A stretch of DNA of 20,672 nt, from IMG/VR virus record IMGVR_UViG_2861330777_000001, one strand, 5' to 3'. The notes under the pieces were generated by a model, which saw only the letters and a program-made list of their open reading frames with translations, made no database searches and had not been told where the DNA came from. Both the position numbers and the translations under genes were made by a program. Positions 4,928 to 20,672 of this stretch are shown piece by piece (position 1 is the first letter of the stretch; each line of letters begins with the position of its first letter). This stretch comes from an uncultured virus (IMG/VR IMGVR_UViG_2861330777_000001) (Duplodnaviria; Heunggongvirae; Uroviricota; Caudoviricetes).

Positions 4928-4958
4928 AAAAAACATCTAGCCTTGTCTAGGTTAGATG
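4928..4958 (-). terminator. Terminator after the sufA/iscA fragment
   Basis: CATCTAGCCT-N5-AGGTTAGATG (one mismatch) with T6 on the minus strand, right after TGA at 4960-4962. Confidence 0.65.
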
Positions 4959-4959
4959 C

Positions 4960-5082
4960 TCAATCTAAAGTATTTGGTGTACCTACTTTCTTCGCAGTCC
5001 TAAACGATGACCCACAACCGCATGTAGCTATTTCATTTGGGTTATCAATCGTAAATCCGCCACCCATCATGGATTGCTTGAA
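4960..5082 (-). pseudogene. sufA: 3' fragment of a HesB/IscA/SufA A-type Fe-S carrier gene
   Basis: Translates as [40 protein letters not shown], with the diagnostic GF.IDNPN...CGCG.SF motif. In-frame stop at 5095-5097 upstream; no 5' part. Confidence 0.9.
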
Positions 5083-5085
5083 AAT

Positions 5086-5170
5086 TTTGATATATCAAAG
5101 TTTTTTATTGTTTTTGGTGATTATGAATTGCAATCATGATTGTTAATTGCAAGCCTGCTCAATTGTTAAT
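5086..5170. repeat. att-like flank: palindrome plus short direct repeats
   Basis: TTTGATATATCAAA 14-bp palindrome (5086-5099); AATTGCAA x2 (5126, 5145); ATTGTTAAT x2 (5139, 5162). Confidence 0.5.
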
Positions 5171-5350
5171 GTCGCTAATTGAATAGTCCCCAAAAATTAT
5201 ACTTAAGGCAACTAATAACTCAAAAAAATTCCCCAACAATAGTTACGGTTCTTTAGATAATGAAATTAAAGCAAATTGTGTGAGTGGTACACTCTTCACA
5301 GTTCAATATAATAATCATTGTAATTTGATAACATGCCCCTTCTAAAATCA

Positions 5351-5374
5351 AGAAAGACACTCTTTTAGAGTGCC
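5351..5374 (-). terminator. Terminator of the DUF4062 gene
   Basis: Minus strand reads GGCACTCT-AAA-AGAGTGTC-TTTCT. Confidence 0.65.
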
Positions 5375-5427
5375 AACTAATGTTTTGCTTCTAAATATCA
5401 GATTATCTTTCCATTTGAGACTGATAT

Positions 5428-6798: not shown

Positions 6799-6836
6799 TT
6801 TAACCCTCCTTTTTCAAGCAGAAATAGTCCTTTTAC

Positions 6837-6845
6837 ATTATACCA
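6837..6845 (-). promoter_or_regulatory. Extended -10 sigmaA promoter for the DUF4062 gene
   Basis: TGGTATAAT (TGn-TATAAT) about 40 nt upstream of the ATG. Confidence 0.6.
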
Positions 6846-6972
6846 AATTCAGGAATTTTATTATTTAATTATTTTTACTTTTGTTGTTATTTACCTGAGT
6901 ACAGGAGCAGTAGAGCTACTAAATAATTCATTAAATACTCCTTGAAATTGGTCAATAGACTCCCACTAGAAC

Positions 6973-6996
6973 AAAAAAACACCCTTTTTGAGTGCC
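6973..6996 (-). terminator. Terminator related to those at 4042 and 5351
   Basis: Minus strand reads GGCACTC-AAAAA-GGGTGTT-TTTTT. Confidence 0.55.
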
Positions 6997-7021
6997 TAAA
7001 ATATTTGCTCGTAATCTCCTA

Positions 7022-7105
7022 GAAATTGCTATGGTTTGTAGAGGTGAAAGAAAAATGGCATTTGGTTACAAATGGGCGTTTAAAGATATTTTAAAGAGTA
7101 ATTGA
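7022..7105 (+). pseudogene. Relic NUMOD1 (homing-endonuclease DNA-binding) domain end
   Basis: EIAMVCRGERKMAFGYKWAFK matches the NUMOD1 C-terminal pattern I..CCrG.rktagGy.W.y; no convincing start. Confidence 0.65.
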
Positions 7106-7143
7106 TATTTTGCTATTTCGGTATAAGAGCGTATCTGCTACGC

Positions 7144-7232
7144 CTTTCTACCCATATGCTTTACTTGCTATTAGCACTATCCCTACCTTCACATGTGCGT
7201 TCTAAAATTATGTCACGTACAAATTGTGCGAA
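7144..7232 (-). pseudogene. Relic of serine resolvase helix E and hinge
   Basis: FAQFVRDIILERTCEGRDSA then, after a frameshift, KHMGRK. Resembles the resolvase consensus FAQFER..I.ERT.EGR..A....GR. Confidence 0.65.
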
Positions 7233-7351
7233 TGGACAATCGATAGCTTAAAGTTGGCTCTGTGGCATAATGAATATGATTTCATGAGTGCTGTTATAGT
7301 TCATTTCAAATTTTAAGGCAATAAAAAACAACTGACCGTTGGTTAATTTGT

Positions 7352-8614
7352 TCAAACATGTTTCCATGTCTTACCCAGTCTTATATCTGATATCGTTCTT
7401 CTATGGACACCATATTTTTCTCCTATTTCAGCATTGGTCATGTTTCCTTGCTTCAATAGCAATTTAACCTCTCTGACATCCTGCTCTGTAAGCTTTGCTC
7501 TTTCCTTAGTTTTATTAATTTCATCATCATACTGAGTCTTAACATGCGAGTATATTTTACCTGTTTTGATTCTGTGAATGGCTTGTTTAGTTACATTGAA
7601 TTGGTCGGCAATTTTTTGAAGGGTCATCTCACCTTCCTTAAGTAACTCCTTAATTATCTGTATGGATTCCTCAGATAACTTATTATCTTGCTTTCCTGCA
7701 TTAAAACCAGCAACTTCAATGTGTTTCCAAGTGGTGCCCAGACTTATATTGGTGATAGTTGAAGATGCGACATTAAAATTTTTGGCGATTTGTTCATGTG
7801 TCAAATTTCCTTGAACAAGAAGTTTCTTAATTTCAGTAGCATCCTTATCTTTTAGTTTTCTGTATGATGTACTAATGGGAGTGTCAGTAGGGATATGACT
7901 AAAGTTCCTTCCTCTGGATATGGCACTAACAGTAGTTATACCCACATTAAATATTTCAGCAATCTCTTTCTGTTTTAATTTCCCTTCTGCTAATAGGTTC
8001 TTTATCTGCTTACCTCTTTCTTCTCTTTGTTGTATCCTTGCTTCAATGAAATTCTCTTCGAAGAGGTACTTCCACTTCCTCCCAGTTCCGATTTCATAAA
8101 CTGCTATTGGAGATATACCAAAGGTTTCAGCAATTTGACTACAAAACAGTCCTTCCTTCAAAAGCTCATGGATTTCAAGTACCTGTGAAGCAGTTAGTTT
8201 GGAACTACTACTGTTCTCTCCTTGATTTGCTTCTCTTATTTTTCGTCTAGTTTCCTCTGTGACTAATCTGCCTATACCTGCTTCTGCTATCTTTTTCCTT
8301 GCTTCTTCTGTGTGGGACCTTCCAAGCATTAAAGCACTTCCACCAAATGTCATGTTGTATCCATTGTTATAAGAATCATAGTGGTTAATCCAATACATTT
8401 CCTTCTCATTTAGCTCATCAAGAGTATCTGCTTTATCAATGACTTTCCACTTGAATGATTCCTCACCATATCTTCTGATTGCTCGATGGAAAATAAATTC
8501 ACTACCACTTCTAGCATCTAACAAGTGTCTTTTCTTTCTTGTCTGTAATGTCCTTATTGTCAACCCAATATACACTTTACGATTAACTGTATTAGTTGCT
8601 TTATAAATAATCAA
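7352..8614 (-). CDS. GIY-YIG endonuclease with NUMOD3 motifs and five tandem HTH repeats
   Basis: IIYKATN...KVYIGLT...R...RAIRRYG.E.F...E...GYN; NUMOD3-like HTEEARKKI and TEETRRKI; five KL...EIK.LL..G....IA..F.V....IS.I..G..W.H repeats. TTG start with AGGTGG RBS. Confidence 0.88.
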   Translation of the reverse strand: MIIYKATNTVNRKVYIGLTIRTLQTRKKRHLLDARSGSEFIFHRAIRRYGEESFKWKVIDKADTLDELNEKEMYWINHYDSYNNGYNMTFGGSALMLGRSHTEEARKKIAEAGIGRLVTEETRRKIREANQGENSSSSKLTASQVLEIHELLKEGLFCSQIAETFGISPIAVYEIGTGRKWKYLFEENFIEARIQQREERGKQIKNLLAEGKLKQKEIAEIFNVGITTVSAISRGRNFSHIPTDTPISTSYRKLKDKDATEIKKLLVQGNLTHEQIAKNFNVASSTITNISLGTTWKHIEVAGFNAGKQDNKLSEESIQIIKELLKEGEMTLQKIADQFNVTKQAIHRIKTGKIYSHVKTQYDDEINKTKERAKLTEQDVREVKLLLKQGNMTNAEIGEKYGVHRRTISDIRLGKTWKHV

Positions 8615-8647
8615 TTAGCATCCACCTATTCTATAATAAACAGGACA

Positions 8648-9235
8648 TTAATCCCCTACACGTTCCCTTACAGCTCTATAAAGAGTTGCCCTGCTTATCT
8701 TGGTTATCTGTTCAATCTCTTTCACAGTCATCTTATTGGTATTTCTATTATTAAATAACTCAAGGGCATACTGTAAACCACTGTTATTCTCCGTGTATTT
8801 CTTAGGTCTTCCTTTATAGACTCCTCTTCGCTTAGCTTCTTCAATGCCCTCCAATTGCCTTTCCTTAATCATATCAGCTTCAAATTCTGCGATACCAGAT
8901 AATACTGTTATCATTAACTTACCAATTGCTGTTCCTGTATCAATTTTATCTCCACCCATATTCAAGACAATAAGCGAAACACCTTTGCCTTTTAAGTACT
9001 CAATAGTGTTTAAAGCATCTTTGGTACTTCTAGCAAACCTATCTAACTTTGTAACAACAATGGTGTCACCTTCTAGCACTGTCTCAAGGAGTAGATTGAA
9101 TTGCTCTCTTTCTTCTTTCTTCCTTCCACTGACCTTTTCTTTAAAAATAATGTCACATCCCGCTTCTTGCAGTTGTTTAATTTGTGCGGTTAGATTTTGA
9201 CCTGCTGACGATACACGACCATACCCATATTTCAT
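8648..9235 (-). CDS. Serine recombinase (resolvase/invertase family), intact
   Basis: MKYGYGRVSS (catalytic Ser), GDTIVVTKLDRFARS, AEFE...ERQ.EG...GRP, C-terminal HTH ISRATLYR. ATG at 9235 with AGGGGG RBS. Confidence 0.95.
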   Translation of the reverse strand: MKYGYGRVSSAGQNLTAQIKQLQEAGCDIIFKEKVSGRKKEEREQFNLLLETVLEGDTIVVTKLDRFARSTKDALNTIEYLKGKGVSLIVLNMGGDKIDTGTAIGKLMITVLSGIAEFEADMIKERQLEGIEEAKRRGVYKGRPKKYTENNSGLQYALELFNNRNTNKMTVKEIEQITKISRATLYRAVRERVGD

Positions 9236-9254
9236 ATCAATTCCCCCTCTATTT

Positions 9255-9336
9255 CGACACATGTATATGAGACAACTTTAACCTAAGTATATCAATCTCC
9301 CAACATTGTATCAATAGGGTGTACTTAAATGAAACA
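9255..9336. promoter_or_regulatory. Putative res accessory subsites
   Basis: CGACAC..TGAGACA (9255-9274) and inverted TGTATCA-N16-TGAAACA (9307-9336) immediately upstream of the resolvase. Confidence 0.55.
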
Positions 9337-9455
9337 TTATATTACTACTGGAAATTTAACTAACTATCATTTTGAACTAATCTCAAAAAATAAAACTTAT
9401 ATATCTGCTTTTAATGTTAAAATTATCCTAAAAGTACTCTTAGGAGAGAAATAAC

Positions 9456-10274
9456 ATGAAACCAAATGAAGAAATTGTTTTACAAAATAAATTACTTATT
9501 AGACACGATTTAATTGAAGAAGGACTAACATTAACTGAAAGAGAATCATTGATTCAGATGCGGAAAAGATGCGATATTTTATTTAAAGATAAAGAAGGAA
9601 GAAACCTTTATATCGAGGTGAAAGAAGTAGTAGACGACAAAGCTATCGAACAAATGTTAGGTTACAGAACATTTGTTAAAGACAATGATTCAAGGTTCAT
9701 GTTGATAGCAAATTATCCAATAAACGATAATTACCAATCAAAATTACACGAACTACAAATAGAGTATATGGCTAGAAATAAAAACGATATTCAAGTCCAG
9801 TTAAAGAATATAGTTGAAATACCAAAGGGAAATTCTAATTACCGTACTAAAGAAAATGTTATAAAGAAACTAAATAAACAAGGCACAATTGCAAGTGATA
9901 TTTACAATTACATAGCTAACAACTTACATACTTTAAACACCTCGATTATCTGTAATATCTCAGATGGAATTATGTTTCAATTAGTACAATGTAATGAGAA
10001 ATTTTTATCTATTTCAACCATCGGAAACCGCTTGCTATTTCATTTCCCTAATGGAAATCGTGATAGTATATACGCCAAATATAAAATTACAATTCCAGAA
10101 CTATACCGTTACAAAGATAAGTATTTAGAGAATATTGATAAGGATAAATTTAAAGACAAAGAGCCTAATCAAATTGATATTAAATTAAAACATGTTATAA
10201 GTTTGGATTATATCAAACCACTTATTAATGAAGCATATAAACAGTCATTAATAAGCAGTCGGTCACACATCTAA
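9456..10274 (+). CDS. NucS/DUF91-like PD-(D/E)XK nuclease domain protein
   Basis: E..LQ...IEEGL...RE...RCDILFKD...YIEVK...AIEQMLGY...MLIA; extra C-terminal domain; AGGAG RBS. Confidence 0.75.
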   Translation: MKPNEEIVLQNKLLIRHDLIEEGLTLTERESLIQMRKRCDILFKDKEGRNLYIEVKEVVDDKAIEQMLGYRTFVKDNDSRFMLIANYPINDNYQSKLHELQIEYMARNKNDIQVQLKNIVEIPKGNSNYRTKENVIKKLNKQGTIASDIYNYIANNLHTLNTSIICNISDGIMFQLVQCNEKFLSISTIGNRLLFHFPNGNRDSIYAKYKITIPELYRYKDKYLENIDKDKFKDKEPNQIDIKLKHVISLDYIKPLINEAYKQSLISSRSHI

Positions 10275-10286
10275 ACAACATTAAAA

Positions 10287-10327
10287 TAGTACAGAGTTTC
10301 CTAGTTATAAAAGGAAACTCTGTACTA
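10287..10327. terminator. Hairpin between convergent genes
   Basis: Perfect 16-bp stem TAGTACAGAGTTTCCT-N9-AGGAAACTCTGTACTA. Confidence 0.75.
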
Positions 10328-10450
10328 ACCCAAAATATTTATAAAGATATACTTCATTTTTCAAACGTTTAAAAAATTTCATCCGCTTTTACAATCAATA
10401 AAAACAACTAGTTTGACACTTCCTTAAAGGTATACCTTTTTAAACTTTAA

Positions 10451-11362
10451 TCAATGTCCAAATGGCTTTTCTTTTTCAACTGATACTGTTAAAGTTGGTA
10501 AACTCCCAACATTATCTTCATATTCCGCTTTGTAAATAATACCGTTTTGAGTATAAGATAAAGTTTTTTCCTCTACAATTTTTCCATTACTTAAACCTAA
10601 ATAGTTAATAGCAATTTGTTCTTTATTCTCCCCTTTAGGGTCTGCTATTAATATTAGGTTAGCACCTGCTTGATAAACATCTATATAACCTGATTTATTG
10701 TCCGTTACATTTCCTATAACCACAGCATACGATACCTTACCAGTATCCTTTTCTGTGCTAGCACTAACATATAAAGAATTATTTACTTGTCCATCATAAC
10801 GAATGCCAAAAGGAATTTGGCTTTCTCTTTCATTTTTTATCATAAAATATGAATTATCATAATCATCAACAGATTCATTCCAATAATTACTAAAGGTTTT
10901 CCAATCCATATTAAAGATTGTATTTTCGTAGGTATTTTCTGTACTCTCTTCTTGCGCTACAACTTCCTCTTCATTTATTCCATCTTCTTTTTCAATTAAA
11001 GCTTCTAACTCTTGTTTGTAGGACTTAATTTTATTTGTCAAAGCTTTATCACTTATTCCAATTTCTTCAATTTTACCTAAAGAGTTATAAAAGGAAGCTT
11101 CTTTATCACTATCTGCCTTCATTTCTTGATAATCCTTTTGTATATATTCTAAAAGCACTTTTGAAATAGTTTTGTTTAATTCATCTTTCTTTTCCTTTGA
11201 TGAATCGTTTGTCGCATCTTCATAGATTTTTTTTGCTGTAAAATAATCTTTTTCTTCAATTGATTCGACTACTTTTTTTGCAGAGTCTTTACTACTTGCG
11301 CCACAGCCACTTAAGATGACCAAGCTTATTCCTAAAATAATAAATAAGAAATTCCTTTGCAT
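10451..11362 (-). CDS. Lipoprotein of unknown function
   Basis: Start revised to ATG 11362 (GGGGAG/GGAG RBS). Signal peptide MQRNFLFIILGISLVILSG-C with an LSGC lipobox. Confidence 0.85.
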   Translation of the reverse strand: MQRNFLFIILGISLVILSGCGASSKDSAKKVVESIEEKDYFTAKKIYEDATNDSSKEKKDELNKTISKVLLEYIQKDYQEMKADSDKEASFYNSLGKIEEIGISDKALTNKIKSYKQELEALIEKEDGINEEEVVAQEESTENTYENTIFNMDWKTFSNYWNESVDDYDNSYFMIKNERESQIPFGIRYDGQVNNSLYVSASTEKDTGKVSYAVVIGNVTDNKSGYIDVYQAGANLILIADPKGENKEQIAINYLGLSNGKIVEEKTLSYTQNGIIYKAEYEDNVGSLPTLTVSVEKEKPFGH

Positions 11363-11610
11363 CCTTCTCCACTCCCCTATTAAACTATATATGTAATCTA
11401 GGATAATTTTACCATTTGAAAGCAAATTAAAATAGATATATAAGCCCGTGTCGAAAGTTAAAAAATTGCACACGAAACAAGCATGTCAATAAACATACTT
11501 TTATGATTATTTTTATCAATTATACGTAATGAAATATTTAACATCTGTAGGAGTGGAACACTTATTTTTCGAGTTTATCGTTCATTTGATAAATCCTCTC
11601 TTTTATACAG

Positions 11611-11637
11611 AAAAACCCCATCATAGAAATGGGGTTT
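11611..11637 (-). terminator. Terminator downstream of 11776..13032
   Basis: AAACCCCAT-N7-ATGGGGTTT with a T tract on the minus strand. Confidence 0.65.
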
Positions 11638-11775
11638 CAATCTACTTGCTTTGTGTTTGGAATGCTTGATTAGCATTATATGGTATTTGTGTTTTTTATA
11701 TAAGGTTAATCGAAAATTCCAAAGTCCTCATATTTTTGTTTTAATAACGTTTCATTAAATTATCGCAAAACCCTT

Positions 11776-13032
11776 TTATTTAAAAGTGTGGCCGTAGTAT
11801 TCTTGCAACTTCTCATATGCTTTTGCGTATAATTCCAAATACATAAATTCCTTGTTTTTATCCCATTTATTTTTGTCATCGTAAGGGTCGTTCTCAACAC
11901 TTATAACTTTCCTTTTTCCACCGTAATCTTCAATTGATTCCTTCACTACCTTTATAGGTGTGTTGAATCTCTCTTGCCTTTTTTTCGCTAACCCAACTAC
12001 ATAATCGTTTCTTGTTTTATGAAAATCGTTTCTGTTCTCTAAAAAATACTGAATCTCGTTACTGTTATAAAATTCAATTGCTTCACGATTATTTTTCTCT
12101 AACCATTTGATAATCGGATTCTTTCCTGCACGTAAAAATATTGCATGCGCTGTATAAGCTAATACCAGATATAAACGTTCACCGCTTTCATCCGTAATTC
12201 TGTTTAATCTGTATTTATACTCTTTCCAGTATTCTTGTACAATCTTCATATTTTTAAGGTTGTGAATTTCCTTCAATGAAAGGTGCTTGTATTTGTCTTG
12301 GTTTTGCAGTTCTCTCTGCATTAAAGAAATTTCCCCTACGACATAAGATGATAGCTCAGGATATTCATATCTATAAGAAATGGATTGCTCCGTTTCTCCG
12401 CTCTCATCGTCCCAACTTTCTGATATAACTGGAATTTTACATTTTCCCATTTCATACGGTACATGTGTGATTATTTTTGCTTTATTTAACCTTGCAACCA
12501 CCGCCATAAAATAATCGTTCAATCTTTGAATCTCTCTTACTACGTAATCTTCAACAACATCATCATAACCTTTTTTAACGACCTCATTTTCAACTAATCT
12601 ATTAGTCTCGGCTTCTAACACCCTTGAATCATATTTCAATTTTCTTGCTTCAAACATTTCTTTAGTAATAAAACCCATATCCAATAACCATTTTGGGATT
12701 GTTTGTGGCTTCTCACTTTGATGCGTTTCTAAATACTCTAACATCATAATTGGAAATGCTTGCTCATACTTCAATGGCACTTGCCCCTTTCCGTTATTTA
12801 CACGTTTATCTTTACGGTCAGCTTCAACATCACGTTTTGCACCCAATATGTATTTAGTCTTCTTTCCACCCTTACCTATCGTCTCAACACTTTCATATCT
12901 TTGGTCTAAATCCGTAACAAATCGATTAAATATATTTATCATCAACTTATTATTTTTAGCCATATGCTCCTTGATTATGTCGTCACCTTCGATTGCTACA
13001 ATTTCTTCCTGTGTAAATTCTGTTTTATTCAC
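11776..13032 (-). CDS. Hypothetical mobile-element protein (possible replication protein)
   Basis: 418-aa ORF, GTG start, AAGGAG RBS at 13043-13048. No motif recognised; the replication role is inferred only from the adjacent origin-like DNA. Confidence 0.8.
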   Translation of the reverse strand: MNKTEFTQEEIVAIEGDDIIKEHMAKNNKLMINIFNRFVTDLDQRYESVETIGKGGKKTKYILGAKRDVEADRKDKRVNNGKGQVPLKYEQAFPIMMLEYLETHQSEKPQTIPKWLLDMGFITKEMFEARKLKYDSRVLEAETNRLVENEVVKKGYDDVVEDYVVREIQRLNDYFMAVVARLNKAKIITHVPYEMGKCKIPVISESWDDESGETEQSISYRYEYPELSSYVVGEISLMQRELQNQDKYKHLSLKEIHNLKNMKIVQEYWKEYKYRLNRITDESGERLYLVLAYTAHAIFLRAGKNPIIKWLEKNNREAIEFYNSNEIQYFLENRNDFHKTRNDYVVGLAKKRQERFNTPIKVVKESIEDYGGKRKVISVENDPYDDKNKWDKNKEFMYLELYAKAYEKLQEYYGHTFK

Positions 13033-13072
13033 TTAAAACAAACTCCTTTTATTTTGAAATTCATACTTTCTT

Positions 13073-13140
13073 AAAAAAGATACATAATTGCCTTATGATA
13101 ATATATATAATTTATTATAGGTCGATATTGTATCTTTTTT
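13073..13140. repeat. 68-bp imperfect palindrome with AT-only centre
   Basis: 29-nt arms, 23/29 complementary; outer 12 bp perfect (AAAAAAGATACA/TGTATCTTTTTT); loop TATATATAAT. Confidence 0.8.
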
Positions 13141-13466
13141 CTTCCTTAACCAAAACCCAAGCCGTTAAATCTCCGCTATCGCTCCGATTCACCGACTCCA
13201 CATCCACAACTTCGTTGTGTCTGTGCAACAAATACTTTTCTTTCACATTAACAATTGAGTGGAGGAGCGAGCTGTTAAGCTTGCTTTTGAAAATCAACCT
13301 CATGGAGTTATCAACGAAACGGAATAGCGTAATGAGTGGATTTGCCTTTCATCAATTTATTACCTATTTAATTTATCTTAAATACCCACCTGATAATCCC
13401 TCACCTTCAAATATAAATGGTTTCTCATATCAAAAGACCACAGATATGTCAACCATTTATATTTAA

Positions 13467-13495
13467 ATTATACCATATTTTTTTATTCCAGTCCA
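13467..13495 (-). promoter_or_regulatory. sigmaA promoter facing 11776..13032
   Basis: TGGACT-17-TATAAT with TG extension (TGGTATAAT). Confidence 0.6.
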
Positions 13496-13659
13496 AAAAC
13501 CTCTTAATTAGTACGTTAATTCATTAAAGTGTCGTATCTTTATTTTGATTTTCCTACAAAACAAAAAAAACAGAAAATCGGTCTTTATTATCGAAATAGT
13601 TCTTGTTTGTCTATGGAGTGATGAAATGGAGTTTCAACCACAAGTGGGAGCTCTAATAT

Positions 13660-13748
13660 GCTTATCATCACAAATAGCATTTCAAGTGAGGCCGATGGAA
13701 GTGCCACTCATTGATTCTGAAGGGGAAACCCATGTTATGGTGATAAGC
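13660..13748 (+). ncRNA. Candidate structured RNA (three-way junction)
   Basis: Stems 13660-70/13738-48, 13675-80/13732-37 and 13682-90/13707-14, plus a GGG-GAAA-CCC tetraloop hairpin (13722-31). Non-canonical pairs are G-U on the + strand. Confidence 0.4.
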
Positions 13749-13761
13749 GCCCCGACACATC

Positions 13762-13796
13762 AAGAAACACACCCATTATTAGTGAGCGCGTTTCTT
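13762..13796 (-). terminator. Minus-strand hairpin (terminator-like)
   Basis: AAGAAACGCGCTCA-N7-TGGGTGTGTTTCTT pairs fully only on the minus strand, using G-U pairs. Confidence 0.5.
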
Positions 13797-14045
13797 TGCA
13801 TCTTAATGCGAGGGAAAATCCTTAGACTCTTCGTTCTCTCTTCTTTCTTTGACTTTCTGAATACTTGGCTAGATTTTATAAGAAGGAGCAGAAAACGAGG
13901 TTGCAGCCGCTAGTATTTACAAATTCATTAAAGGACTCGCTTTAAAGCTGCTTTAAAACCTTTTTTATAATCTTTTAATTAAAGTAGCGCTTCATATTTA
14001 AACTAGCTCTTTCAAATTAAGTAATAGTTTTTTATAGTAGATAGC

Positions 14046-14192
14046 TTACAAATAAGAACGAAGGTTTTTTACTAGCTCATCAACATCTAAATGCAAATAT
14101 TTAGTTGTTACCGAAATATCACTATGACCTAAAGCCTTTGAAATCACAGCAACATTCGCCCCTTTATCTAACAAGGATTTAGCAAAACCTCT
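14046..14192 (-). pseudogene. C-terminal relic of a tyrosine recombinase/integrase
   Basis: RGFAKSLLDKGANVAVISKALGHSDISVTTKYLHLDVDELVKNLRSYL*, containing box II (LGH...T..Y). Preceded by an in-frame TGA at 14193-14195. Confidence 0.88.
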
Positions 14193-14557
14193 TCAATATT
14201 TAGATACAACGCTTAATAAATATTTTCAAAGGGACTGAAGCAGCCACTATTAGTAAAAACATATTTACAGTCTGGTGTGAGACATACATAGACTTATAAG
14301 CATTTTGTGAAATGCAGCTTTTAGTTGTCTTCAGATAGAATGTCAACTTTGGTAATAATGCAGTTTCGCAATACTTTATGTCACAGAATCTTATGTGTCA
14401 TCAATTGAGGTTCAGAAACTGATTTCTTTAAAATTTGGTAATATAAGTAAAAAATTGTATTAATTGATATTTCCAAATACGACATAACTTTATCAATCCC
14501 AAAAATCCCTATTACAATTTCTACCGTATTAAAATATATATGTATTTTTTCTAAATT

Positions 14558-14586
14558 AAACACCTCGCCAGATTGACGAGGTGTTT
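14558..14586. terminator. Terminator of the methyltransferase gene
   Basis: AAACACCTCG-N9-CGAGGTGTTT, 4 nt after the stop. Confidence 0.75.
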
Positions 14587-14590
14587 TTTC

Positions 14591-16003
14591 TTAGTTTTTA
14601 TATTCTAACTTCTTTTCAGCATCCACTTTAGAAGGTTTAGAAAATTCTTTATTTACCATTTCTTGTTTTAATAAACCGATTCGTTTAGTTACTGCTTCTT
14701 GTTGCATTTCAAGTTTATTTATTTCCCCTTCATAATGTTCAGGAACTGATAATAGCTGAGTTTCCCCTAGATAAATTTCTTTAATTTTATTACCCATCTT
14801 TTCAATAAGCCCGACCACTAATGCATTTCCCATACAGAAGTAACGCATTCTTTCTGGCATAGTATTAGTCCAATTAGGAGGAAAATCATTTAGTATTTCA
14901 CATTCAATTGGTGTTAGTATTCTTAATCTTCCAGTATCCAAATCCGACACTACGTGAGTACTTCTGTTTTTAGTACCTTCACTAGTTAACATCGTTCTTC
15001 CAGGGCTGTCCAAATCATCTGGAAAATTCATACCTCCTTCGGAATAAGTATACACATGGCCCGATTGAGAAGTTCTCTCTATTTTCTTCGACCCTTTTAA
15101 ATATTTAAAGTGTTCAAGTGCCGTTTTCCCATTTTTCCCAACTTTATCTATATCTAAATAATACCTTTCATCTATTACTTGTCCATACTCTTTTGCTTCT
15201 CTTAATACTTGTCCCAATGTTTTTGAAGGAATAGTCTTAGGAATTACTTCTTCAGTATAGAAATTTCCGTTTCTCATTATTCCAGAGTTTCTAAAATTAG
15301 CTGTAAATGTATCTGACACCTCTACAATATCAAGAGGTAGTGTATCGTCAGAAACTGGATGTTTTAAAGAAGTGCCTTCCAATGGAAACTCTGACGCAAA
15401 GAAACCTTTTTCATGAATTAATTCTTGTGGAGAATAGCCAGATTCTTCTTGTTTTTTTGCAAATTGTGTTTCATTTTTATAGGCAAAAATAAATACTCTT
15501 CTCCTCTTTTGTGCCATACCATAATCTGCTGCATTAATCATTCGCCATTCAACGCTATATCCTAAATCTCTAAAGCTTGCTAACATAACAGCAAAGTCTC
15601 TCCCCTTTCGTTTTGAAGGAGACTTTAATAATCGGTCAACATTTTCCAAGAGGACAAACGATGGAGTATTCATTCTTATAATATCCATTATTTCCCAAAA
15701 TAAAACACCCTTTTTTCCTTGAATACCCGCTTCCCCATTTAATGTACGTGCGACAGAGTAATCTTGGCACGGAAATCCCCCTACTAATAAATCATGTTTA
15801 GGAATTTCATATTTTGCTATTGCGATATCTTCATTACTATGGAAGCCTCTATCTTCAAAGCGTTTATCATAGCAATTGAAGGCGTGTTGTGTCTTATGTG
15901 ATGGTTCCCATTGGTTTCCCCAAAGGACATTGAATCCTTCATTTCGTTCTAAACCTAATCGGAATCCTCCTACTCCTGCAAAAAGTTCTACTACATCTAT
16001 CAT
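14591..16003 (-). CDS. dcm: DNA (cytosine-5)-methyltransferase, M.Sau3AI-like (predicted GATC)
   Basis: Motifs ELFAGVGG, GGFPCQDYS, LLENV, QKRRRVF, RILTPIEC, MGNA. Long blocks (GIQGKKGVLFW, VDRLLKSPS..GRDFAVML, RTMLTSE...NRSTH) typical of M.Sau3AI. About 50-aa C-terminal extension. Confidence 0.95.
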   Translation of the reverse strand: MIDVVELFAGVGGFRLGLERNEGFNVLWGNQWEPSHKTQHAFNCYDKRFEDRGFHSNEDIAIAKYEIPKHDLLVGGFPCQDYSVARTLNGEAGIQGKKGVLFWEIMDIIRMNTPSFVLLENVDRLLKSPSKRKGRDFAVMLASFRDLGYSVEWRMINAADYGMAQKRRRVFIFAYKNETQFAKKQEESGYSPQELIHEKGFFASEFPLEGTSLKHPVSDDTLPLDIVEVSDTFTANFRNSGIMRNGNFYTEEVIPKTIPSKTLGQVLREAKEYGQVIDERYYLDIDKVGKNGKTALEHFKYLKGSKKIERTSQSGHVYTYSEGGMNFPDDLDSPGRTMLTSEGTKNRSTHVVSDLDTGRLRILTPIECEILNDFPPNWTNTMPERMRYFCMGNALVVGLIEKMGNKIKEIYLGETQLLSVPEHYEGEINKLEMQQEAVTKRIGLLKQEMVNKEFSKPSKVDAEKKLEYKN

Positions 16004-16045
16004 AAAAATAAGGACATCCTTTCGATATATATTTATCTAATTATT

Positions 16046-16074
16046 ATTATAATAAATACTTAAATAAAGATCAA
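16046..16074 (-). promoter_or_regulatory. sigmaA promoter of the methyltransferase, with GATC inside the -35 box
   Basis: TTGATC (16074-16069), 17-nt spacer, TATAAT (16051-16046); 42 nt upstream of the ATG. Confidence 0.8.
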
Positions 16075-16459
16075 CCATAATAACTATGGTAAATGAGGGC
16101 ATATAATAACTCCCAAAATAAAATTTCAAAACAGATTCTACTATAATAAGACATTTTTATTATTCTTTATCTCTATGAAAAAGAAAAACATGAACTTGAT
16201 TATACCATATTCACTCAAGATTATTTCAACTTCCAGAATAGGGAGATTCAAAAAATCACAATGACTTATAAACATAAATATTAATTATTAAAAAGAATAG
16301 AGGTTAACCCTCTACTCTTTTTCTTCATATTTAGTAATATTATTATATCAGTAGTCTGAATCTCATTTCTTATATCCTATAAATCAATTTGAATTTATTA
16401 GTGATGGTCAACTGTTAATAAAACTCATTATTTTCATCGTAAATCTATTACATAGAAAC

Positions 16460-17074
16460 TCATTTTTTCCCCTCGTATTCCTTCACTTTTCTGTAAAATG
16501 TAGCCTTAGACATTCCCATTGTCTCCATAAATTTCACCGCTGATATCTCCCCTGCTTTCCACTGACTGTAATACTTTTTCCATTCTGTTGGTATTGCTAC
16601 TGCCGGCCTTCCGAACTTGACTCCATTCTTCATTGCTATTGCGATACCCTCTGCCGGCCTTGTCTTTATTCCTTCTCTTTCCTTCTCAGCAAATGCAGTA
16701 AGCAATGTAAGGATGATTTTTTGAATTGCCTGTTTCATAATGTCGTCCTGCTAGTTACTTGTATTAATCATAGGCTCTTTTATGAAACAAAGCTTGACAC
16801 CATTTTTAACAAACCAATCATATTCAATTAATGTCTCATTCATATTTCTACCCATTCGAGAGATAGAATCAAATACGACTGTATCCCCTTCACGAACCAT
16901 CTGCTTAAGTAGTAGATACTTAGGTCTTACAAAGTCTTTTCCGCTTGCCTTATCGATAAAAATATCACGTTCACCTATTCCTTTGTCTTTCATTGTCTCA
17001 ACTTGTCTTGCCTCGTTCTGCTCCTTAGAGGATACACGAACAGAGGTTAGTTTCATAGCAACTGACAATAACAT
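16460..17074 (-). pseudogene. Serine resolvase pseudogene (in-frame TAG at 16751-16753, damaged 5' end)
   Basis: The two ORFs share one frame: RVSSKEQN..GDTVVFDSISRMGRN and AFAEKERE...GVKFGRP...SKATFYR. The N-terminal GY before RVS is missing. Confidence 0.9.
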
Positions 17075-17093
17075 ACTTGATTAAATAAATTAC

Positions 17094-17136
17094 AAATAAG
17101 CTACCGCTAGTTTTACAGACTTATGGTAGCTTATTT
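17094..17136. terminator. Terminator after the two-gene nuclease unit
   Basis: AAATAAGCTACC-N19-GGTAGCTTATTT 12-bp stem. Confidence 0.65.
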
Positions 17137-18131
17137 TATAACTTCGCCCTATAAACAGTTGGTTTTAAGTTCAATGAGTCTTTAAGGTCACCTTCGACTC
17201 TATAGAACTTTCCTGAATTAGAATTATGGTCATATTCATAGACTCTATATAACTCATAGTTATTTGTATATTCTAAAGAAAACGCCAATTCATTAGCAGT
17301 TATTATAAACGGGGTATTAATTCCACCTTTTGTAGTTTTAACCTCTATGTATAATGAAGTACCATCCTCTTTAAAGGCTTCTATGTCATAGCCTGCTCCA
17401 TCTCCTTCTATGACTGAAGTATGAATAGTGTCATATCCTAAAACATTCTTGAGATGGTTAACAACTAATAATTCCCCTTTTAATCCAAGCTCAGAATTTC
17501 TTTTGCTGTTCTCAGCATAATCAACCTTGGTAGCATAAAAGCTTCTTGATTCTTTTGCTTTATCAGGCATCAAACTTGGTCGCTGAGTTTCGACTAAATG
17601 GTCTTTAACTAAATCCTCTTGATTGATTAAGGGTTCTAATGTTAAATCCATTCTATCTAATACATTCGAAGGAGGTACCTCCCAATCTATAATCTGCCAC
17701 TTAAAATAAACTGGTTGTTCCCTAGTTGTATCATGTGTAAGATACGCTAGTCTCCCCAAGTAAGTAAAGGGTTCAACTTGTTTAGTTAGACTATTCTTCT
17801 TTTTAGTTCTTAAAAATAGGTATATATTCTCTATTAAATGATTATGACTAATCAATTGCTTTATCACTTTATTATCCAGCGTCTGTTTAGGCTGAGATTG
17901 CCAAGTTAATATACCATCTTCAGTTATACTTTCATCAAAATCATGGCCTAGTTGTTTTTGTCCAAATGTTACAAAAAACACAAAGTCCTTTTTCCTTTTC
18001 GGAATCTTTACAAGTCCATGAAGTCCCCAATTTCCCGCTCCTATTGTAAATGGAGTTACACCATCAAAGATTTTATATACATCATCTCTAGAGTATTGGT
18101 CATATAAGTTGAGACGCTTAATTGACACCAT
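17136..18131 (-). CDS. DUF3427-like N-terminal domain fused to a DUF3883/NOV_C PD-(D/E)XK nuclease
   Basis: N-term YSRDDV...FFVTFG...TWQSQP...IYLFLR...FTYLG; C-term GLKGELLV...GDGAGYDIEAF...YIEVKTT...ITANE...LYRVY. ATG at 18131 after AGGAG. Confidence 0.8.
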   Translation of the reverse strand: MVSIKRLNLYDQYSRDDVYKIFDGVTPFTIGAGNWGLHGLVKIPKRKKDFVFFVTFGQKQLGHDFDESITEDGILTWQSQPKQTLDNKVIKQLISHNHLIENIYLFLRTKKKNSLTKQVEPFTYLGRLAYLTHDTTREQPVYFKWQIIDWEVPPSNVLDRMDLTLEPLINQEDLVKDHLVETQRPSLMPDKAKESRSFYATKVDYAENSKRNSELGLKGELLVVNHLKNVLGYDTIHTSVIEGDGAGYDIEAFKEDGTSLYIEVKTTKGGINTPFIITANELAFSLEYTNNYELYRVYEYDHNSNSGKFYRVEGDLKDSLNLKPTVYRAKL

Positions 18132-18146
18132 TTTCACTCCTAAACT

Positions 18147-18770
18147 CTATATCATTTGAATATTTTGAATTATAACTCTATCAATCTGATTATATTGTTG
18201 CTCATTAACGATTCCGTTTAAACATAGAGGAGGTCTTTGATTCCTAATTTTCGCTCGTTGTACAACAGTATCTGTATTAAAGAAACCGTATATTACAGAA
18301 ACAATTGCTTCATGATACCTAGTTATTGGCAACCTGACGCCTATCTTCCCTCTAATCCTAGGATAGTTTATTTCTTCCTGGCCTATTAACCAATACACTA
18401 GTTGTACAAATTGTCTCCCATTATAAGTGACATTACCAAATTCAATAGTAAATTGTGGATTCACTTGGGTATCTAAACCACTAATCAATATATCCATTAA
18501 AGTATTACTTAATTCTATCGCTTTGTCTAATCTTTGGTTCAGCGGAAACGAAAGTAAATAGTGCTCAATTGCATATATAATATCCCCATGAGAAAAGCTG
18601 TTACCATTAACACTTAATCTATAGTCTCCTCTCCCTTTATAAGTCGGATATTCTAAAATTAAATTTTCTACATCACACTCTGGTCGATATGTTAAATCAT
18701 AATTGTTAGTATTTTGGGGTACATTTCGGTAATTATTTTGCATTGTATCAATTAAAAAACTAAAAGGCAT
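18147..18770 (-). CDS. Hypothetical protein, probably co-transcribed with the nuclease
   Basis: 207-aa ORF, GGGAG RBS, 15 nt from the next start. Conserved-looking blocks YPTYKGRGDY, SHGDI, W...QEEINYP, RYHEA. Confidence 0.8.
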   Translation of the reverse strand: MPFSFLIDTMQNNYRNVPQNTNNYDLTYRPECDVENLILEYPTYKGRGDYRLSVNGNSFSHGDIIYAIEHYLLSFPLNQRLDKAIELSNTLMDILISGLDTQVNPQFTIEFGNVTYNGRQFVQLVYWLIGQEEINYPRIRGKIGVRLPITRYHEAIVSVIYGFFNTDTVVQRAKIRNQRPPLCLNGIVNEQQYNQIDRVIIQNIQMI

Positions 18771-19199
18771 TAGCTTCCATCTCCCATTTCTTTAGTTCAA
18801 TTGTATATCCAATTATTTACTAAAACAACTACATTACTAACTATCTAGCATTTATAGGGAACAAACGGTAACAGAAAAAAATTTTATTACCCCACCCCGT
18901 GCCGAATGTTCCCTTTAGTGACCAATAAAACATGGTAACGCTCGTTAACAAGCGAGAAAAATTCGAAAATTTATCAAGATACATACGAATCAAACTACTT
19001 TTCTATTACAATTTTCTAGAGAATATTACAAGTTTCGAACTTTGTTCGTATATCTCAAGATTATTATATTCTTTGATTTTTCATTAGGCATAGATTTATT
19101 CTTGGTTATACAAATGTGCTAGTGGCAATTCTAAGGATTCTTCTCTTAATCACCTAAACTCCCCATATAAATAGTACATTATAATCAACTAATATTTTT

Positions 19200-20672
19200 T
19201 TATTCAATAAACGGCTGTTCGTGTAATAATGCTACTAAAGTGCTCCCCTTCACCCAAACGTTTTGACGATACATCGCAATGTTATTTATCGTCACCGGCT
19301 TAATAGTTGAATCTTTTCCTGAGCCTCGAATAAATATGTCGTAATCTTTTGATTTTGGAAAATTAACAGACGTTTTCAATGTACCCGATTTATTTATTTG
19401 GGGTTTTCCATCCTTTCCATATTCAATTTCGTCTCGTAATTCGTTGTAATGAATTAAACGTCTTACTTCAAGCCATACTTGCTGCAAGTCTTGTTCAATT
19501 ATTGAATCTGGAAATACAAATCGTTTAAATCCTTGAAATTTGTTATCTAATAACTTCGCATCTGAGGACGGCTCCTCAAATAAAATAAATAATAATTGCT
19601 GTAATTTAAACGCTTGATACACCGCGGATTGTTCAAAAGTTGTATTCACTTCTGTCCACTCCTCAAAGTCGATAGGAAATAGTTTCGTATCTTCTGTACG
19701 TGTACCATTTTTCGTCATCGTCAAGGTTTTCGGTAAAAGCCCAATTTTATGAAACAACTCAATTTTACTTAGCTTTTTTGCTTTTCCTCCAAACATGCGC
19801 ACTATAATTTGCTCCGCGATAGATTTTGATACATCATTTTTTTTATTTAGTTTTATCGGAATTTGTAACTCATCCATTAGCTCACGAATCGTTTTCCCAC
19901 GATGCGACTTGGTTATTTGCTTTAACTTTTCATCAATTTGTGCAAACGATGTATAACTTTCCGTTAATTGCTCTAGCTTTTGACCGAAATGATTTTGCAC
20001 AATCGTTGAAACGGTAGTACGCTTTAAACGGAAACGTGGTCGGTTCGGCCATTTCGGTGCGATATCAATTAGCATTAACTGCTTGCGCAATTCAGAAGAA
20101 ATGCTGTGATATAGCTTCTCAGGCTTGGAGTAATTTTGCTGTAAGAATTCAATAAATGTTCGAACAAGTTCCCAGTCGTTTTGAAGCGTTTTTCTATCCT
20201 CTTCTGAAAAAGTATGGAAATGATAATCCTCAATAATGAAGTTGGCATATTCAAGAGCCGGTACTGTTTGTTCTGCTGCGTAATGATAGTAAACTAGCAA
20301 TAAATTCTGAAGCTTATGCCAAAAATTTGAGCTTTCAAAGTACTCCTCCACAATTCGTTCCGGCGAAACAGCCGTAATCGACATCGGCTCCTTCGCCTCA
20401 AATTCATGCTCACTTTTCTTTTTTGGTTTACGAATACCAGTTGTTTTCAGCTCAACAGGGACTCCATCTACAAGTAAATCAGCCTCTTGTTTCGAATCTG
20501 CAGGGTAACCTAGCACAGATTGTTCAATGACATCACCTGCGATTCCTGTAATTTTAGGTGAAATACGCGCACGGTCAAAAACTCGATTTTTATCAACTTC
20601 TCCTAACGATTTCCCTACAACATTATCCAAGATTTGATGCAACTGAGACTTTTTAAAAACATGTCCAGCCAT
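19200..20672 (-). CDS. Sau3AI/MutH-family type II restriction endonuclease (two MutH-like halves)
   Basis: G.AGDVIEQ..LGY..DS..EADL...ELKTT catalytic half; DWE, RFRLK and WVKG blocks; second degenerate half; 490 aa. The start sits at the window edge, so no RBS is visible. Confidence 0.9.
   Translation of the reverse strand: MAGHVFKKSQLHQILDNVVGKSLGEVDKNRVFDRARISPKITGIAGDVIEQSVLGYPADSKQEADLLVDGVPVELKTTGIRKPKKKSEHEFEAKEPMSITAVSPERIVEEYFESSNFWHKLQNLLLVYYHYAAEQTVPALEYANFIIEDYHFHTFSEEDRKTLQNDWELVRTFIEFLQQNYSKPEKLYHSISSELRKQLMLIDIAPKWPNRPRFRLKRTTVSTIVQNHFGQKLEQLTESYTSFAQIDEKLKQITKSHRGKTIRELMDELQIPIKLNKKNDVSKSIAEQIIVRMFGGKAKKLSKIELFHKIGLLPKTLTMTKNGTRTEDTKLFPIDFEEWTEVNTTFEQSAVYQAFKLQQLLFILFEEPSSDAKLLDNKFQGFKRFVFPDSIIEQDLQQVWLEVRRLIHYNELRDEIEYGKDGKPQINKSGTLKTSVNFPKSKDYDIFIRGSGKDSTIKPVTINNIAMYRQNVWVKGSTLVALLHEQPFIE

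What the first reader, a model, noticed from the sequence alone, without database searches (positions are those of the whole stretch)
16046..16074. The island's only GATC forms the -35 box of the GATC methyltransferase's own promoter
Seen: TTGATC-17-TATAAT lies 42 nt upstream of the methyltransferase, and my manual scan finds no other GATC between 3609 and 20672. Known: M.Sau3AI-type enzymes methylate the C of GATC, and R-M systems such as CfrBI regulate the methylase promoter through a cognate site overlapping the -35. Inference: a methylation switch that expresses the MTase on unmethylated incoming DNA and damps it once the site is modified, without a C protein (none seen here). I am not aware of this being described for Sau3AI-type systems.
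Basis: partly seen in the sequence, partly recalled or inferred. Interest (0 to 1): 0.85.

Follow-up and report, generated by a model that had tools for sequence, protein, structure and literature searches.

The report
Methylase promoter carrying its own GATC
The gene for a DNA-marking enzyme that protects GATC sites has one GATC built into its own on-switch, a layout shared by most of its relatives in other bacteria, so the enzyme probably senses and limits its own production.

Summary
TTGATC-N17-TATAAT lies on the minus strand at 16074-16046, 42 nt before the ATG of a C5 methyltransferase. Its GATC is the only one in 3609-20672 (43-49 expected). It is also the only one in the whole 28.7-kb integrative island, which runs past the window end (72-84 expected).

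Of 88 loci encoding relatives of this methylase, 49 have GATC at the -35 position and 42 have exactly TTGATC-N17-TATAAT. The spacers between the two boxes are scrambled. When promoters were called without looking at GATC, 47 of 50 TTGNNN -35 boxes read TTGATC, against 2 of 171 genome-wide. The motif occurs with every arrangement of the R and M genes.

The GATC is therefore a selected part of the methylase gene's own promoter. Negative autoregulation by methylation or by enzyme occupancy is the most likely role, as shown for CfrBI, AhdI and LlaDII. It remains untested: no start site and no methylation effect could be measured, and no RNA data exist.

Against the reading, the four closest relatives lack the GATC. 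I found no description of this for Sau3AI-type systems, but the original papers were not readable. I rate it a new member of a known kind, of moderate to high interest.

The parts
16046..16074 (-). Sigma-A-type promoter of the methyltransferase gene: TTGATC, 17 nt, TATAAT
   Evidence: Sequence. It is the best promoter-like site in 15900-16800, with 10 of 12 matches. The same architecture is found in 42 of 88 homologous loci.
16069..16072 (.). GATC, the presumed recognition site of the system, at positions 3-6 of the -35 hexamer. It is the sole GATC of the 28.7-kb island.
   Evidence: GATC is invariant at this position in the 49 class-A loci. In the GATC-blind promoter call, 47 of 50 read ATC after TTG.
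16004..16045 (-). Predicted 5' leader with the Shine-Dalgarno sequence AAAGGA (16022-16017). This is a degenerate copy of the family-wide leader motif CGAAAGGATGTTCG.
   Evidence: Sequence. The motif GAAAGGRNGT lies within 45 nt of the start in 51 of 74 loci scanned. The stem seen in relatives is not formed in this copy (L003 row).
14591..16003 (-). C5 cytosine DNA methyltransferase (470 aa), Sau3AI-type partner methylase
   Evidence: PF00145, E 1.4e-65. PADLOC MTase_II, E 1.3e-164. The motifs FAGVGG, PCQ, ENV, QKRRR and GN are visible in the translation. It is 51.3% identical over residues 2-410 to the M. hyorhinis methylase at hit H22, which links to 5mC at GATC.
19200..20672 (-). MutH/Sau3AI-family type II restriction endonuclease (490 aa), 3.2 kb upstream of M on the same strand
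   Evidence: PF02976, E 8e-25. PADLOC REase_II, E 6.9e-148 over residues 1-487. It matches Sau3AI structure 4pxg at E 9.5e-10.
16199..16207 (-). TGGTATAAT, an extended -10-like box and possible second upstream promoter that would read through the GATC promoter
   Evidence: Sequence. It was not reported by the two-hexamer scan and is not part of the conserved module. No start-site data exist.
16298..16314 (.). Stem-loop flanked by A and T runs. It is a terminator-like element that would insulate M from transcription of the upstream broken resolvase.
   Evidence: One search finds 1 terminator-like site against 0.3 in shuffles. The flanking A and T runs are read.
16460..18770 (-). DNA between R and M. 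It holds a 207-aa ORF (18147-18770), a 333-aa DUF3427/NOV_C protein (17136-18137) and a serine-resolvase gene split into two ORFs (16751-17074 and 16460-16738).
   Evidence: Pfam results. PADLOC PDC-S36, E 1.7e-38, for the 333-aa protein. Outside the window itself, tblastn found no full-length match to the 207-aa or 333-aa proteins in the 44 other loci searched; the only hit was a 45-residue stretch of the 207-aa protein in L093 (E 8.7e-06).
3609..20672 (.). The window's part of a GATC-purged, roughly 33% GC integrative defence island (C8:151824-180560). Its integrase lies at the far end, outside the window.
   Evidence: The integrase and a duplicated DUF3900/DUF3898 gene fragment mark both borders.

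Best explanation
The 29-bp element is the methyltransferase gene's own sigma-A promoter in a Sau3AI-family restriction-modification system (recognition site GATC, modification GAT-m5C). The GATC inside its -35 hexamer is a conserved, selected feature of this methylase family. It most likely acts as a cis sensor of the enzyme's own activity.

The proposed mechanism runs as follows. On unmethylated DNA the promoter, a 10-of-12 consensus match, fires fully. Once the enzyme has methylated the two cytosines, sigma region 4 binds less well and methylase synthesis falls to a maintenance level. One methylated cytosine is the last base of the hexamer on the top strand. The other is on the bottom strand, opposite the G of TTG.

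The motif travels with the M gene whatever the position of R. The loop therefore acts on M alone, as in AhdI and LlaDII, and is not a CfrBI-type two-promoter toggle.

Shown here: the sequence, its uniqueness in the island, its conservation and enrichment, and the absence of a C protein. Taken from literature on relatives: the GATC / m5C specificity. Inferred: the start site, and the sign and size of the methylation effect.
For: (1) Conservation. Of 88 homologous loci, 49 have GATC followed by 16-18 nt and a TATAAT-like box, and 42 are exactly TTGATC-N17-TATAAT. Spacer columns carry about 0.1-0.6 bit, with one T-rich column at 1.3 bit, while TTGATC and TATAAT carry about 1.5-2 bit. Relatedness alone therefore does not explain the identity.

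(2) GATC-blind test. 50 of 88 loci have TTGNNN-N17-TATAAT-like promoters, and NNN is ATC in 47 of the 50. In the host genome 2 of 171 such sites are ATC.

(3) GATC is kept where TTG is not. Examples are TAGATC and TGGATC and AGGATC and TCGATC. It is also kept in other promoter layouts: GATC-N23-TATAAT in 7 loci, TTGATC-N17-TAAACT in 5 loci, and a GATC-centred palindrome abutting the -10 box in 3 loci.

(4) On the methylase tree the motif sits in both halves and in most clades. Starred branches force at least 17 changes of the label (quick tree), which suggests an old feature with repeated losses.

(5) Class A occurs with all R/M arrangements: 17 divergent, 9 M>R, 8 R>M and 7 convergent.

(6) Negative control. 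0 of 9 other C5-methylase genes (27-38% identical) in related genomes have a GATC in the 120 nt upstream.

(7) In an island that lost about 70-80 expected GATCs, the one survivor is this site.

(8) Three decayed promoters read TTGATT, ATAATC and TTAATC. These are the products expected from m5C deamination at this site.

(9) Precedent. Methylation of a cognate site in the -35 box (CfrBI) or the -10 box (AhdI) lowers methylase-promoter output.
Against: - No start site or expression data exist for this strain.
- The effect of m5C at these positions on sigma-A binding is recalled structural reasoning and was not tested.
- 22 of 88 loci have no GATC within 110 nt of the start. 13 of these keep a full-length R gene nearby, so the site is dispensable.
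- The four nearest relatives of this methylase (L004, L022, L131, L125) are all GATC-less.
- The sister island in G024 has zero GATC in at least 30.7 kb.
- A second candidate promoter (TGGTATAAT, 16207-16199) could supply methylation-independent transcripts.
- In the M>R tandem loci, repression would also lower R if the two genes are co-transcribed. This fits the establishment logic less neatly.
- The loci are related, so the counts overstate the number of independent events.
Confidence: 0.58

Rival explanations
1. Occupancy rather than methylation. The methyltransferase protein binds its unmethylated or hemimethylated GATC in the -35 box and blocks RNA polymerase directly, so the repressor is the protein and not the methyl mark. 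This resembles operator binding by M.EcoRII, M.MspI and M.SsoII. Those enzyme names are recalled; the review passage describes the type only in general terms.
For: The conservation data are the same. The conserved T-run just after GATC (T in 79-83% of class-A loci at +4 to +6) extends beyond the recognition site and could reflect a protein contact.
Against: This methylase has no N-terminal HTH extension. The PF00145 match begins at residue 3. C5 methylases turn over and bind fully methylated sites weakly (recalled), so steady-state repression by occupancy would be weak. Sequence alone cannot separate this rival from the best explanation.
Confidence: 0.17
2. The methyl mark or hemimethylation raises expression, or times it. 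The promoter would be most active when hemimethylated just after replication. That would give a replication-coupled pulse of methylase, or a positive-feedback epigenetic switch, and not simple damping.
For: The site conservation is neutral as to the sign of the effect. Dam-GATC promoters with hemimethylation-dependent activity are known (recalled).
Against: Positive feedback would give low methylase on naive, unmethylated entry, which is dangerous when an active R gene is present. The three studied precedents all show repression by methylation.
Confidence: 0.1
3. There is no regulatory role. TTGATC is simply an inherited, adequate -35 box, and the GATC is a passenger. The lone GATC in the island is then a chance survivor or a recent mutation.
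For: The promoter match alone is not above chance in this AT-rich stretch. 22 of 88 loci do without the site, including the four closest relatives. The loci share ancestry.
Against: 47 of 50 GATC-blind promoters read ATC, against 1.2% genome-wide. Positions 5-6 of a -35 box are normally free to drift, yet they are invariant here while the spacers are randomised. GATC is retained when TTG or the promoter layout changes. 0 of 9 control methylase genes carry a GATC.
Confidence: 0.08
4. In this particular locus the working methylase promoter is the upstream TGGTATAAT (16207-16199), acquired with the rearranged DNA next to the broken resolvase. The TTGATC promoter would then be a relic.
For: A TG-extended -10 box needs no -35 box (recalled). 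It lies about 90 nt downstream of the terminator-like stem-loop. 22 of 43 class-A loci also have a TGnTAnAAT somewhere upstream, but this count has no control.
Against: The proximal promoter is intact, with a perfect -10 box, a 17-nt spacer and TTG. It is the element conserved in relatives. Its GATC survived a purge that removed every other site.
Confidence: 0.07

Closest known systems
AhdI and LlaDII restriction-modification systems (methylase promoter attenuated by methylation of a cognate site; only the M gene is affected)
   Same: A recognition site of the system overlaps a core element of the methylase gene's own promoter. The loop acts on M alone, independently of the R promoter. AhdI passages were read. 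The review statement on AhdI and LlaDII was read.
   Different: In AhdI the site overlaps the -10 box, the mark is m6A, and a C protein controls R. The LlaDII primary paper was not held, so its site details are not cited. In the window the site is GATC in the -35 box, the mark is presumably m5C, and no C protein is present. Neither system has, to my knowledge, been shown to keep the site across a large family as found here.
CfrBI system (cognate site in the -35 box of the methylase promoter)
   Same: The cognate site lies in the -35 element of the M promoter, and the system is C-protein independent.
   Different: CfrBI has divergent, overlapping M and R promoters, so methylation switches polymerase from M to R. 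The mark is recalled as m4C. In the window, R is 3.2 kb away on the same strand, and the motif is found with all four R/M arrangements in relatives.
Sau3AI, LlaKR2I, DpnIII, Sth368I and Mhy3/End3 GATC systems (MutH-fold nuclease plus C5 methylase)
   Same: The gene families are the same. GATC cutting and GAT-m5C modification were shown for DpnIII (passages) and linked to Mhy3 (passages).
   Different: The nuclease is only distantly related to Sau3AI itself (E 9.5e-10). R and M are split by 3.2 kb of other genes. No promoter-site regulation is mentioned in the passages I could read. M. hyorhinis Mhy3 itself has no GATC upstream.
C-protein-controlled R-M systems
   Same: They solve the same problem, which is timing and limiting M relative to R on entry into a new host.
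   Different: No HTH ORF lies beside M or R in the window. One GATC-less relative of the methylase (L008) has a 72-aa Cro/C1-type HTH gene overlapping the M start. This suggests the two solutions are alternatives within one family.

Membership tests
Sau3AI-type type II R-M system | Nuclease of the MutH/Sau3AI fold | tested here: met
   PF02976, E 8e-25. PDB 4pxg Sau3AI, E 9.5e-10. PADLOC REase_II, E 6.9e-148. A D...ELK motif is visible in the translation.
Sau3AI-type type II R-M system | Partner C5 cytosine methyltransferase with catalytic motifs | tested here: met
   PF00145, E 1.4e-65. The motifs FAGVGG, PCQ, ENV, QKRRR and GN are read in the translation.
Sau3AI-type type II R-M system | Recognition of GATC with methylation of the cytosine | not testable with these tools
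   This is inferred from three things: 51.3% identity to the M. hyorhinis methylase tied to 5mC-GATC, the MutH-family partner nuclease, and GATC avoidance in the island. No methylome exists for this strain.
Promoter-methylation autoregulated methylase genes (CfrBI / AhdI / LlaDII kind) | Cognate site overlapping the -35 or -10 box of the methylase gene's promoter | tested here: met
   GATC occupies positions 3-6 of TTGATC, 17 nt before TATAAT. The same is seen in 49 of 88 relatives.
Promoter-methylation autoregulated methylase genes (CfrBI / AhdI / LlaDII kind) | Transcription starts at that promoter | not testable with these tools
   No RNA run is listed for this DNA.
Promoter-methylation autoregulated methylase genes (CfrBI / AhdI / LlaDII kind) | Methylation of the site lowers promoter output | not testable with these tools
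   This needs reporter or in vitro transcription assays.
CfrBI-type two-promoter toggle | Divergent R promoter overlapping the methylated site, so that methylation turns R on | tested here: not met
   R (19200-20672) is on the same strand, 3.2 kb upstream, and its own upstream region has no GATC. In relatives the motif occurs with all four gene arrangements.
C-protein-controlled R-M systems | Small HTH controller gene next to R or M | tested here: not met
   The ORFs flanking M and R give no HTH domain in Pfam (ORF lists). The only HTH hits nearby are a resolvase HTH_7 at 8648-9262 and multiple HTH hits in the 420-aa GIY-YIG protein at 7352-8614; neither is a small controller gene beside R or M.

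The most novel reading that the evidence does not exclude
Sau3AI-type methylase genes carry an ancient sentinel GATC in their -35 box. This would make the promoter a direct read-out of the cell's GATC methylation state: unmethylated on entry, hemimethylated after each replication. If so, it is an m5C-based epigenetic feedback conserved across more than 20 families of Bacilli and into Clostridia. Promoter-methylation control, currently called 'apparently rarely used', would then be the default for one of the commonest R-M families in Firmicutes. In GATC-purged mobile islands such as this one, it would be the single site that selection keeps.
Probability: 0.5. Interest if true: 0.72.

Novelty: new member of a known kind. 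Interest (0 to 1): 0.62.

Why it matters
Control of a restriction-modification system by methylation of its own promoter has been shown experimentally for only three systems. A 2025 review calls it 'apparently rarely used'.

Methylase genes of this family are frequent. A relative was found in 38 of 401 sampled genomes of the order and in 8 of 47 genomes of the genus. If most of them carry a conserved cognate site in the -35 box, this self-sensing design is widespread in Gram-positive bacteria. It would also be the first case based on 5-methylcytosine in a -35 box.

The finding gives a compact, testable 29-bp element. It also matters for how such systems establish in new hosts, for tuning transformation barriers, and for reading bacterial methylomes.

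The island offers a natural experiment. Every other GATC was removed, and this one was kept.

Tried and rejected
- RNA evidence for the start site: no RNA holder is listed for this DNA, and read laying was not used.
- Close relatives through the search for related loci: the genome collection gave 2 distant loci, the metagenomes gave 5 and the viral contigs gave none. The 90% and 82% identical proteins P0001 and P0002 could not be placed on DNA, so their promoters are unseen.
- Deamination as the cause of the island-wide GATC loss: GATT/AATC are not specifically enriched (observed/expected 1.10, against 1.26 for GATA/TATC and 1.20 for GATG/CATC). The purge looks like selection against the word. 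I dropped the decay-by-methylation idea.
- Link between losing the promoter GATC and losing R: a full-length R lies near 41 of 49 class-A loci and 13 of 22 GATC-less loci (Fisher p = 0.036). This is weak, the loci are kin, and I do not rely on it.
- Methylase tree: the careful search did not finish within the time limit, so only the quick tree was used. Long branches (L136, L126, L130, L127, L001) are unreliable.
- The promoter scan alone does not exceed chance.
- Upstream TGnTAnAAT boxes occur in 22 of 43 class-A loci. No control was run, so no conclusion is drawn.
- The 207-aa and 333-aa genes between R and M have no full-length counterpart in the 44 other loci searched; the only hit is a 45-residue stretch of the 207-aa protein in L093. 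They are not part of a conserved four-gene system.
- Papers not held: LlaKR2I 1998, AbiR/M.LlaKR2I 2006, Sth368I 2001 and LlaDII 2004. Seeber 1990 on Sau3AI was not tried. No supplementary files were opened.

Full report
THE OBSERVATION

On the minus strand the sequence reads TTGATC (16074-16069), 17 nt, TATAAT (16051-16046). Then follow 42 nt containing AAAGGA (16022-16017), then the ATG at 16003 of a 470-aa ORF. The ORF is a C5 cytosine methyltransferase (PF00145, E 1.4e-65). The motifs FAGVGG, PCQ, ENV, QKRRR and GN are visible in its translation.

GATC occurs 8 times in the window against 64 +/- 7 in shuffles. Seven of the eight lie before 3609. In 3609-20672 the site at 16069 is the only one, against 43-49 expected, and GATC is by far the most depleted palindromic tetramer there.

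Taken alone, the two-hexamer match is not more than an AT-rich stretch gives by chance: 3 sites against 4.7 in shuffles. It is, however, the best of them.

THE SURROUNDINGS

The partner nuclease is 19200-20672(-). It is a 490-aa MutH/Sau3AI-family enzyme, with a PADLOC type II REase match at E 6.9e-148 and a distant match to the Sau3AI structure 4pxg.

R and M lie on the same strand but 3.2 kb apart. Between them are:
- a 207-aa ORF without a family;
- a 333-aa DUF3427/NOV_C protein that matches the defence candidate PDC-S36;
- a serine-resolvase gene split into two ORFs;
- a terminator-like stem-loop at 16298-16314.

No HTH controller ORF lies next to either gene.

The window lies in a 5.03-Mb, 37% GC genome with 15,371 GATC sites, an observed/expected ratio of 0.80. 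The GATC-poor tract is a 28.7-kb, 33% GC block (C8:151824-180560) with 1 GATC against 72-84 expected. The two gaps on either side of our site are the two longest in the whole genome (16.3 and 12.5 kb; the third is 4.4 kb and the median is 219 nt).

The block ends in a tyrosine integrase. It is bordered on both sides by a 3' fragment of a DUF3900/DUF3898 gene (window 3183-3623 and L057:12023-12580). Another integrase lies just to its left (1760-2881). This reads as two elements integrated in tandem at one target. The cargo is defence-like: an Mrr-type nuclease, a Shedu gene in two pieces, DUF4062, a GIY-YIG/HTH protein and HNH.

I collected loci encoding relatives of the methylase from these sources:
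- the genus (8 of 47 genomes hit at E <= 1e-60);
- 401 genomes of the order (38 hit at E <= 1e-80);
- 401 genomes of the class (31 hit at E <= 1e-70);
- one genome contigs locus;
- 4 metagenome loci;
- 10 of the 33 plasmid hits.

This gave 88 loci. I dropped L002 and L129, which lack the N-terminus. I kept L009-L017, which encode other C5 methylases at 27-38% identity, as a control.

The 88 loci fall into three classes:
- 49 have GATC followed by 16-18 nt and a TATAAT-like box (class A). 42 of these are exactly TTGATC-N17-TATAAT.
- 17 more have a GATC within 110 nt of the start in another layout (class B). Five have TTGATC-N17-TAAACT, seven have GATC-N23-TATAAT, and three have a GATC-centred palindrome abutting the -10 box.
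- 22 have none (class C).

In the class-A alignment the spacer columns carry about 0.1-0.6 bit, with one T-rich column at 1.3 bit, while TTGATC and TATAAT carry about 1.5-2 bit. A T-run after GATC carries about 1.0-1.2 bit.

That alignment was selected on GATC, so I repeated the call blind. 50 of 88 loci have TTGNNN-N17-TATAAT-like promoters, and NNN is ATC in 47 of them. Genome-wide in the host, 2 of 171 such sites are ATC, and only 7 TTGATC-N16-18-TATAAT sites exist in 5 Mb. None of the 9 control methylase genes has a GATC in its 120 upstream bases.

Class A is found in named Clostridium, Macrococcus, Aerococcus and Lactiplantibacillus plasmids. On the quick methylase tree it occurs in both halves and in most clades, and starred branches force at least 17 label changes.

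Class A occurs with divergent, M>R, R>M and convergent gene orders. The motif therefore belongs to the M gene module and not to a shared R-M control region.

RESULTS AGAINST THE READING

- 22 of 88 loci lack the site, and 13 of these still have a full-length R nearby.
- The window's methylase sits in a clade of five in which the other four (L004, L022, L131, L125) are GATC-less. L022 and L131 read TTGTTC-N20-TATAAT, which looks like a decayed copy. The window's promoter is therefore either an ancestral survivor or was regained by recombination. Nucleotide homology with G024 ends 20 nt upstream of the ATG.
- G024 carries a nuclease gene about 90% identical in DNA, inside a different island that has no GATC at all in at least 30.7 kb, the methylase promoter included.
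- M. hyorhinis Mhy3, the relative with methylome evidence, has no upstream GATC.
- The association of GATC loss with R loss is weak (p = 0.036, kin not independent).

HOW IT MOST LIKELY WORKS

The family's specificity is documented in relatives. DpnIII cuts GATC and its methylase makes GAT-m5C (passages). Mhy3/End3 go with a 5mC GATC motif (passages), and Mhy3 is 51% identical to this methylase.

With GATC at positions 3-6 of the -35 hexamer, the two methylated cytosines are the last base of the hexamer on the top strand and the partner of the G of TTG on the bottom strand. Both lie in the major-groove face read by sigma region 4. That last point is recalled structural knowledge and was not tested.

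The best-supported model is negative feedback. Output is full on unmethylated DNA and reduced once the site is modified. This was shown for the -35 site of CfrBI and the -10 site of AhdI, and is stated in a review for LlaDII.

Three decayed promoters read TTGATT, ATAATC and TTAATC. These are the products expected from m5C deamination, a hint that the site is methylated in vivo.

The rivals are direct occupancy by the enzyme, a hemimethylation-timed or activating effect, an inherited passenger site, and the upstream TGGTATAAT as the working promoter in this locus. Sequence alone cannot separate the first two rivals from the main model.

THE ISLAND-WIDE ABSENCE OF GATC IS A SEPARATE MATTER

It is not typical of these systems. 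Other loci have ordinary GATC densities, including inside R and M. It is shared only with the G024 island.

The neighbours of GATC are not skewed toward the deamination products. Selection against the word is therefore the better explanation. It would give immunity of a mobile element to its own nuclease and to the many GATC-cutting systems of its hosts. Earlier notes of this scan proposed the same for GATC-free giant viruses with such a gene pair (e1-5557407; not tested here). Against that background, the retention of one GATC in the methylase promoter is notable.

KNOWN OR NEW

I ran these searches: Sau3AI + methyltransferase + promoter + restriction-modification, LlaKR2I, Sth368I, CfrBI + promoter + methylation, Sau3AI-like, and a phrase search on own-promoter recognition sites. 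I read passages. None of them gave a description of a cognate site in the promoter of a Sau3AI-type methylase.

The 2025 review lists only CfrBI, AhdI and LlaDII for promoter methylation and does not mention Sau3AI. The original Sau3AI, LlaKR2I, Sth368I and LlaDII papers were not readable, so an early remark there cannot be excluded.

That agrees with this report but is not independent proof.

VERDICT

I rate it a new member of a known kind of regulation, with an unusually broad conservation signal.

Noticed in passing
window 3609-20672, continuing to C8:180560 (L057:1-12560): A 28.7-kb, 33% GC integrative defence island holds a single GATC. The two gaps flanking that site are the two longest GATC-free gaps of the 5-Mb genome. 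Substitutions are not skewed toward GATT/AATC, so this looks like selection against the word and not methylcytosine decay.
   Followed up: partly
L173 + L058 (G024:C40:19030-49772): A second genome of the genus has a different island of at least 30.7 kb with no GATC at all. It shares with the window only the nuclease gene (about 90% DNA identity), part of a resolvase gene (79%) and the methylase gene (71%), in a different order.
   Followed up: partly
window 1760-3623 and L057:10855-12580: Two tyrosine integrases are each followed by a 3' fragment of a DUF3900/DUF3898 gene. This looks like two elements integrated in tandem into the same target gene.
   Followed up: no
leaders of the methylase genes, e.g. 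L005, L030, L040; window 16011-16030: The leader motif CCGAAAGGATGTTCGG is conserved. It forms a 5-6 bp stem with the Shine-Dalgarno sequence in the loop, just before the start codon. GAAAGGRNGT is present in 51 of 74 loci. The sequence is conserved without covariation, so RNA structure is not shown. In the window's copy the stem is lost.
   Followed up: partly
L114, L115, L119: In three related loci the methylase gene is preceded by the palindrome ACGAACGATCGTTCG, centred on GATC and abutting a TATAAT box. This is a different way of putting the cognate site into the promoter, or possibly an operator.
   Followed up: no
L008:1275-1493: One GATC-less relative of the methylase has a 72-aa Cro/C1-type HTH gene overlapping the methylase start (HTH_26, E 2.7e-10). 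It also has a divergent Sau3AI-like nuclease. This is a C-protein-like alternative within the same family.
   Followed up: partly
window 17136-18770: A 207-aa ORF with no family and a 333-aa DUF3427/NOV_C protein (PADLOC PDC-S36, E 1.7e-38) sit between R and M. No full-length match to either was found in the 44 other loci searched; only a 45-residue stretch of the 207-aa ORF matched in L093. This may be a separate defence pair brought in next to the broken resolvase.
   Followed up: partly
L057:3051-3992: The Shedu SduA N-terminal and C-terminal domains lie in two separate ORFs about 300 nt apart. The gene is probably disrupted.
   Followed up: no
L019, L025, L044: Three methylase promoters otherwise like class A read TTGATT, ATAATC and TTAATC where GATC is expected. 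These are the C-to-T products expected from 5-methylcytosine deamination. L019 has no nuclease gene nearby, while L025 and L044 do.
   Followed up: partly
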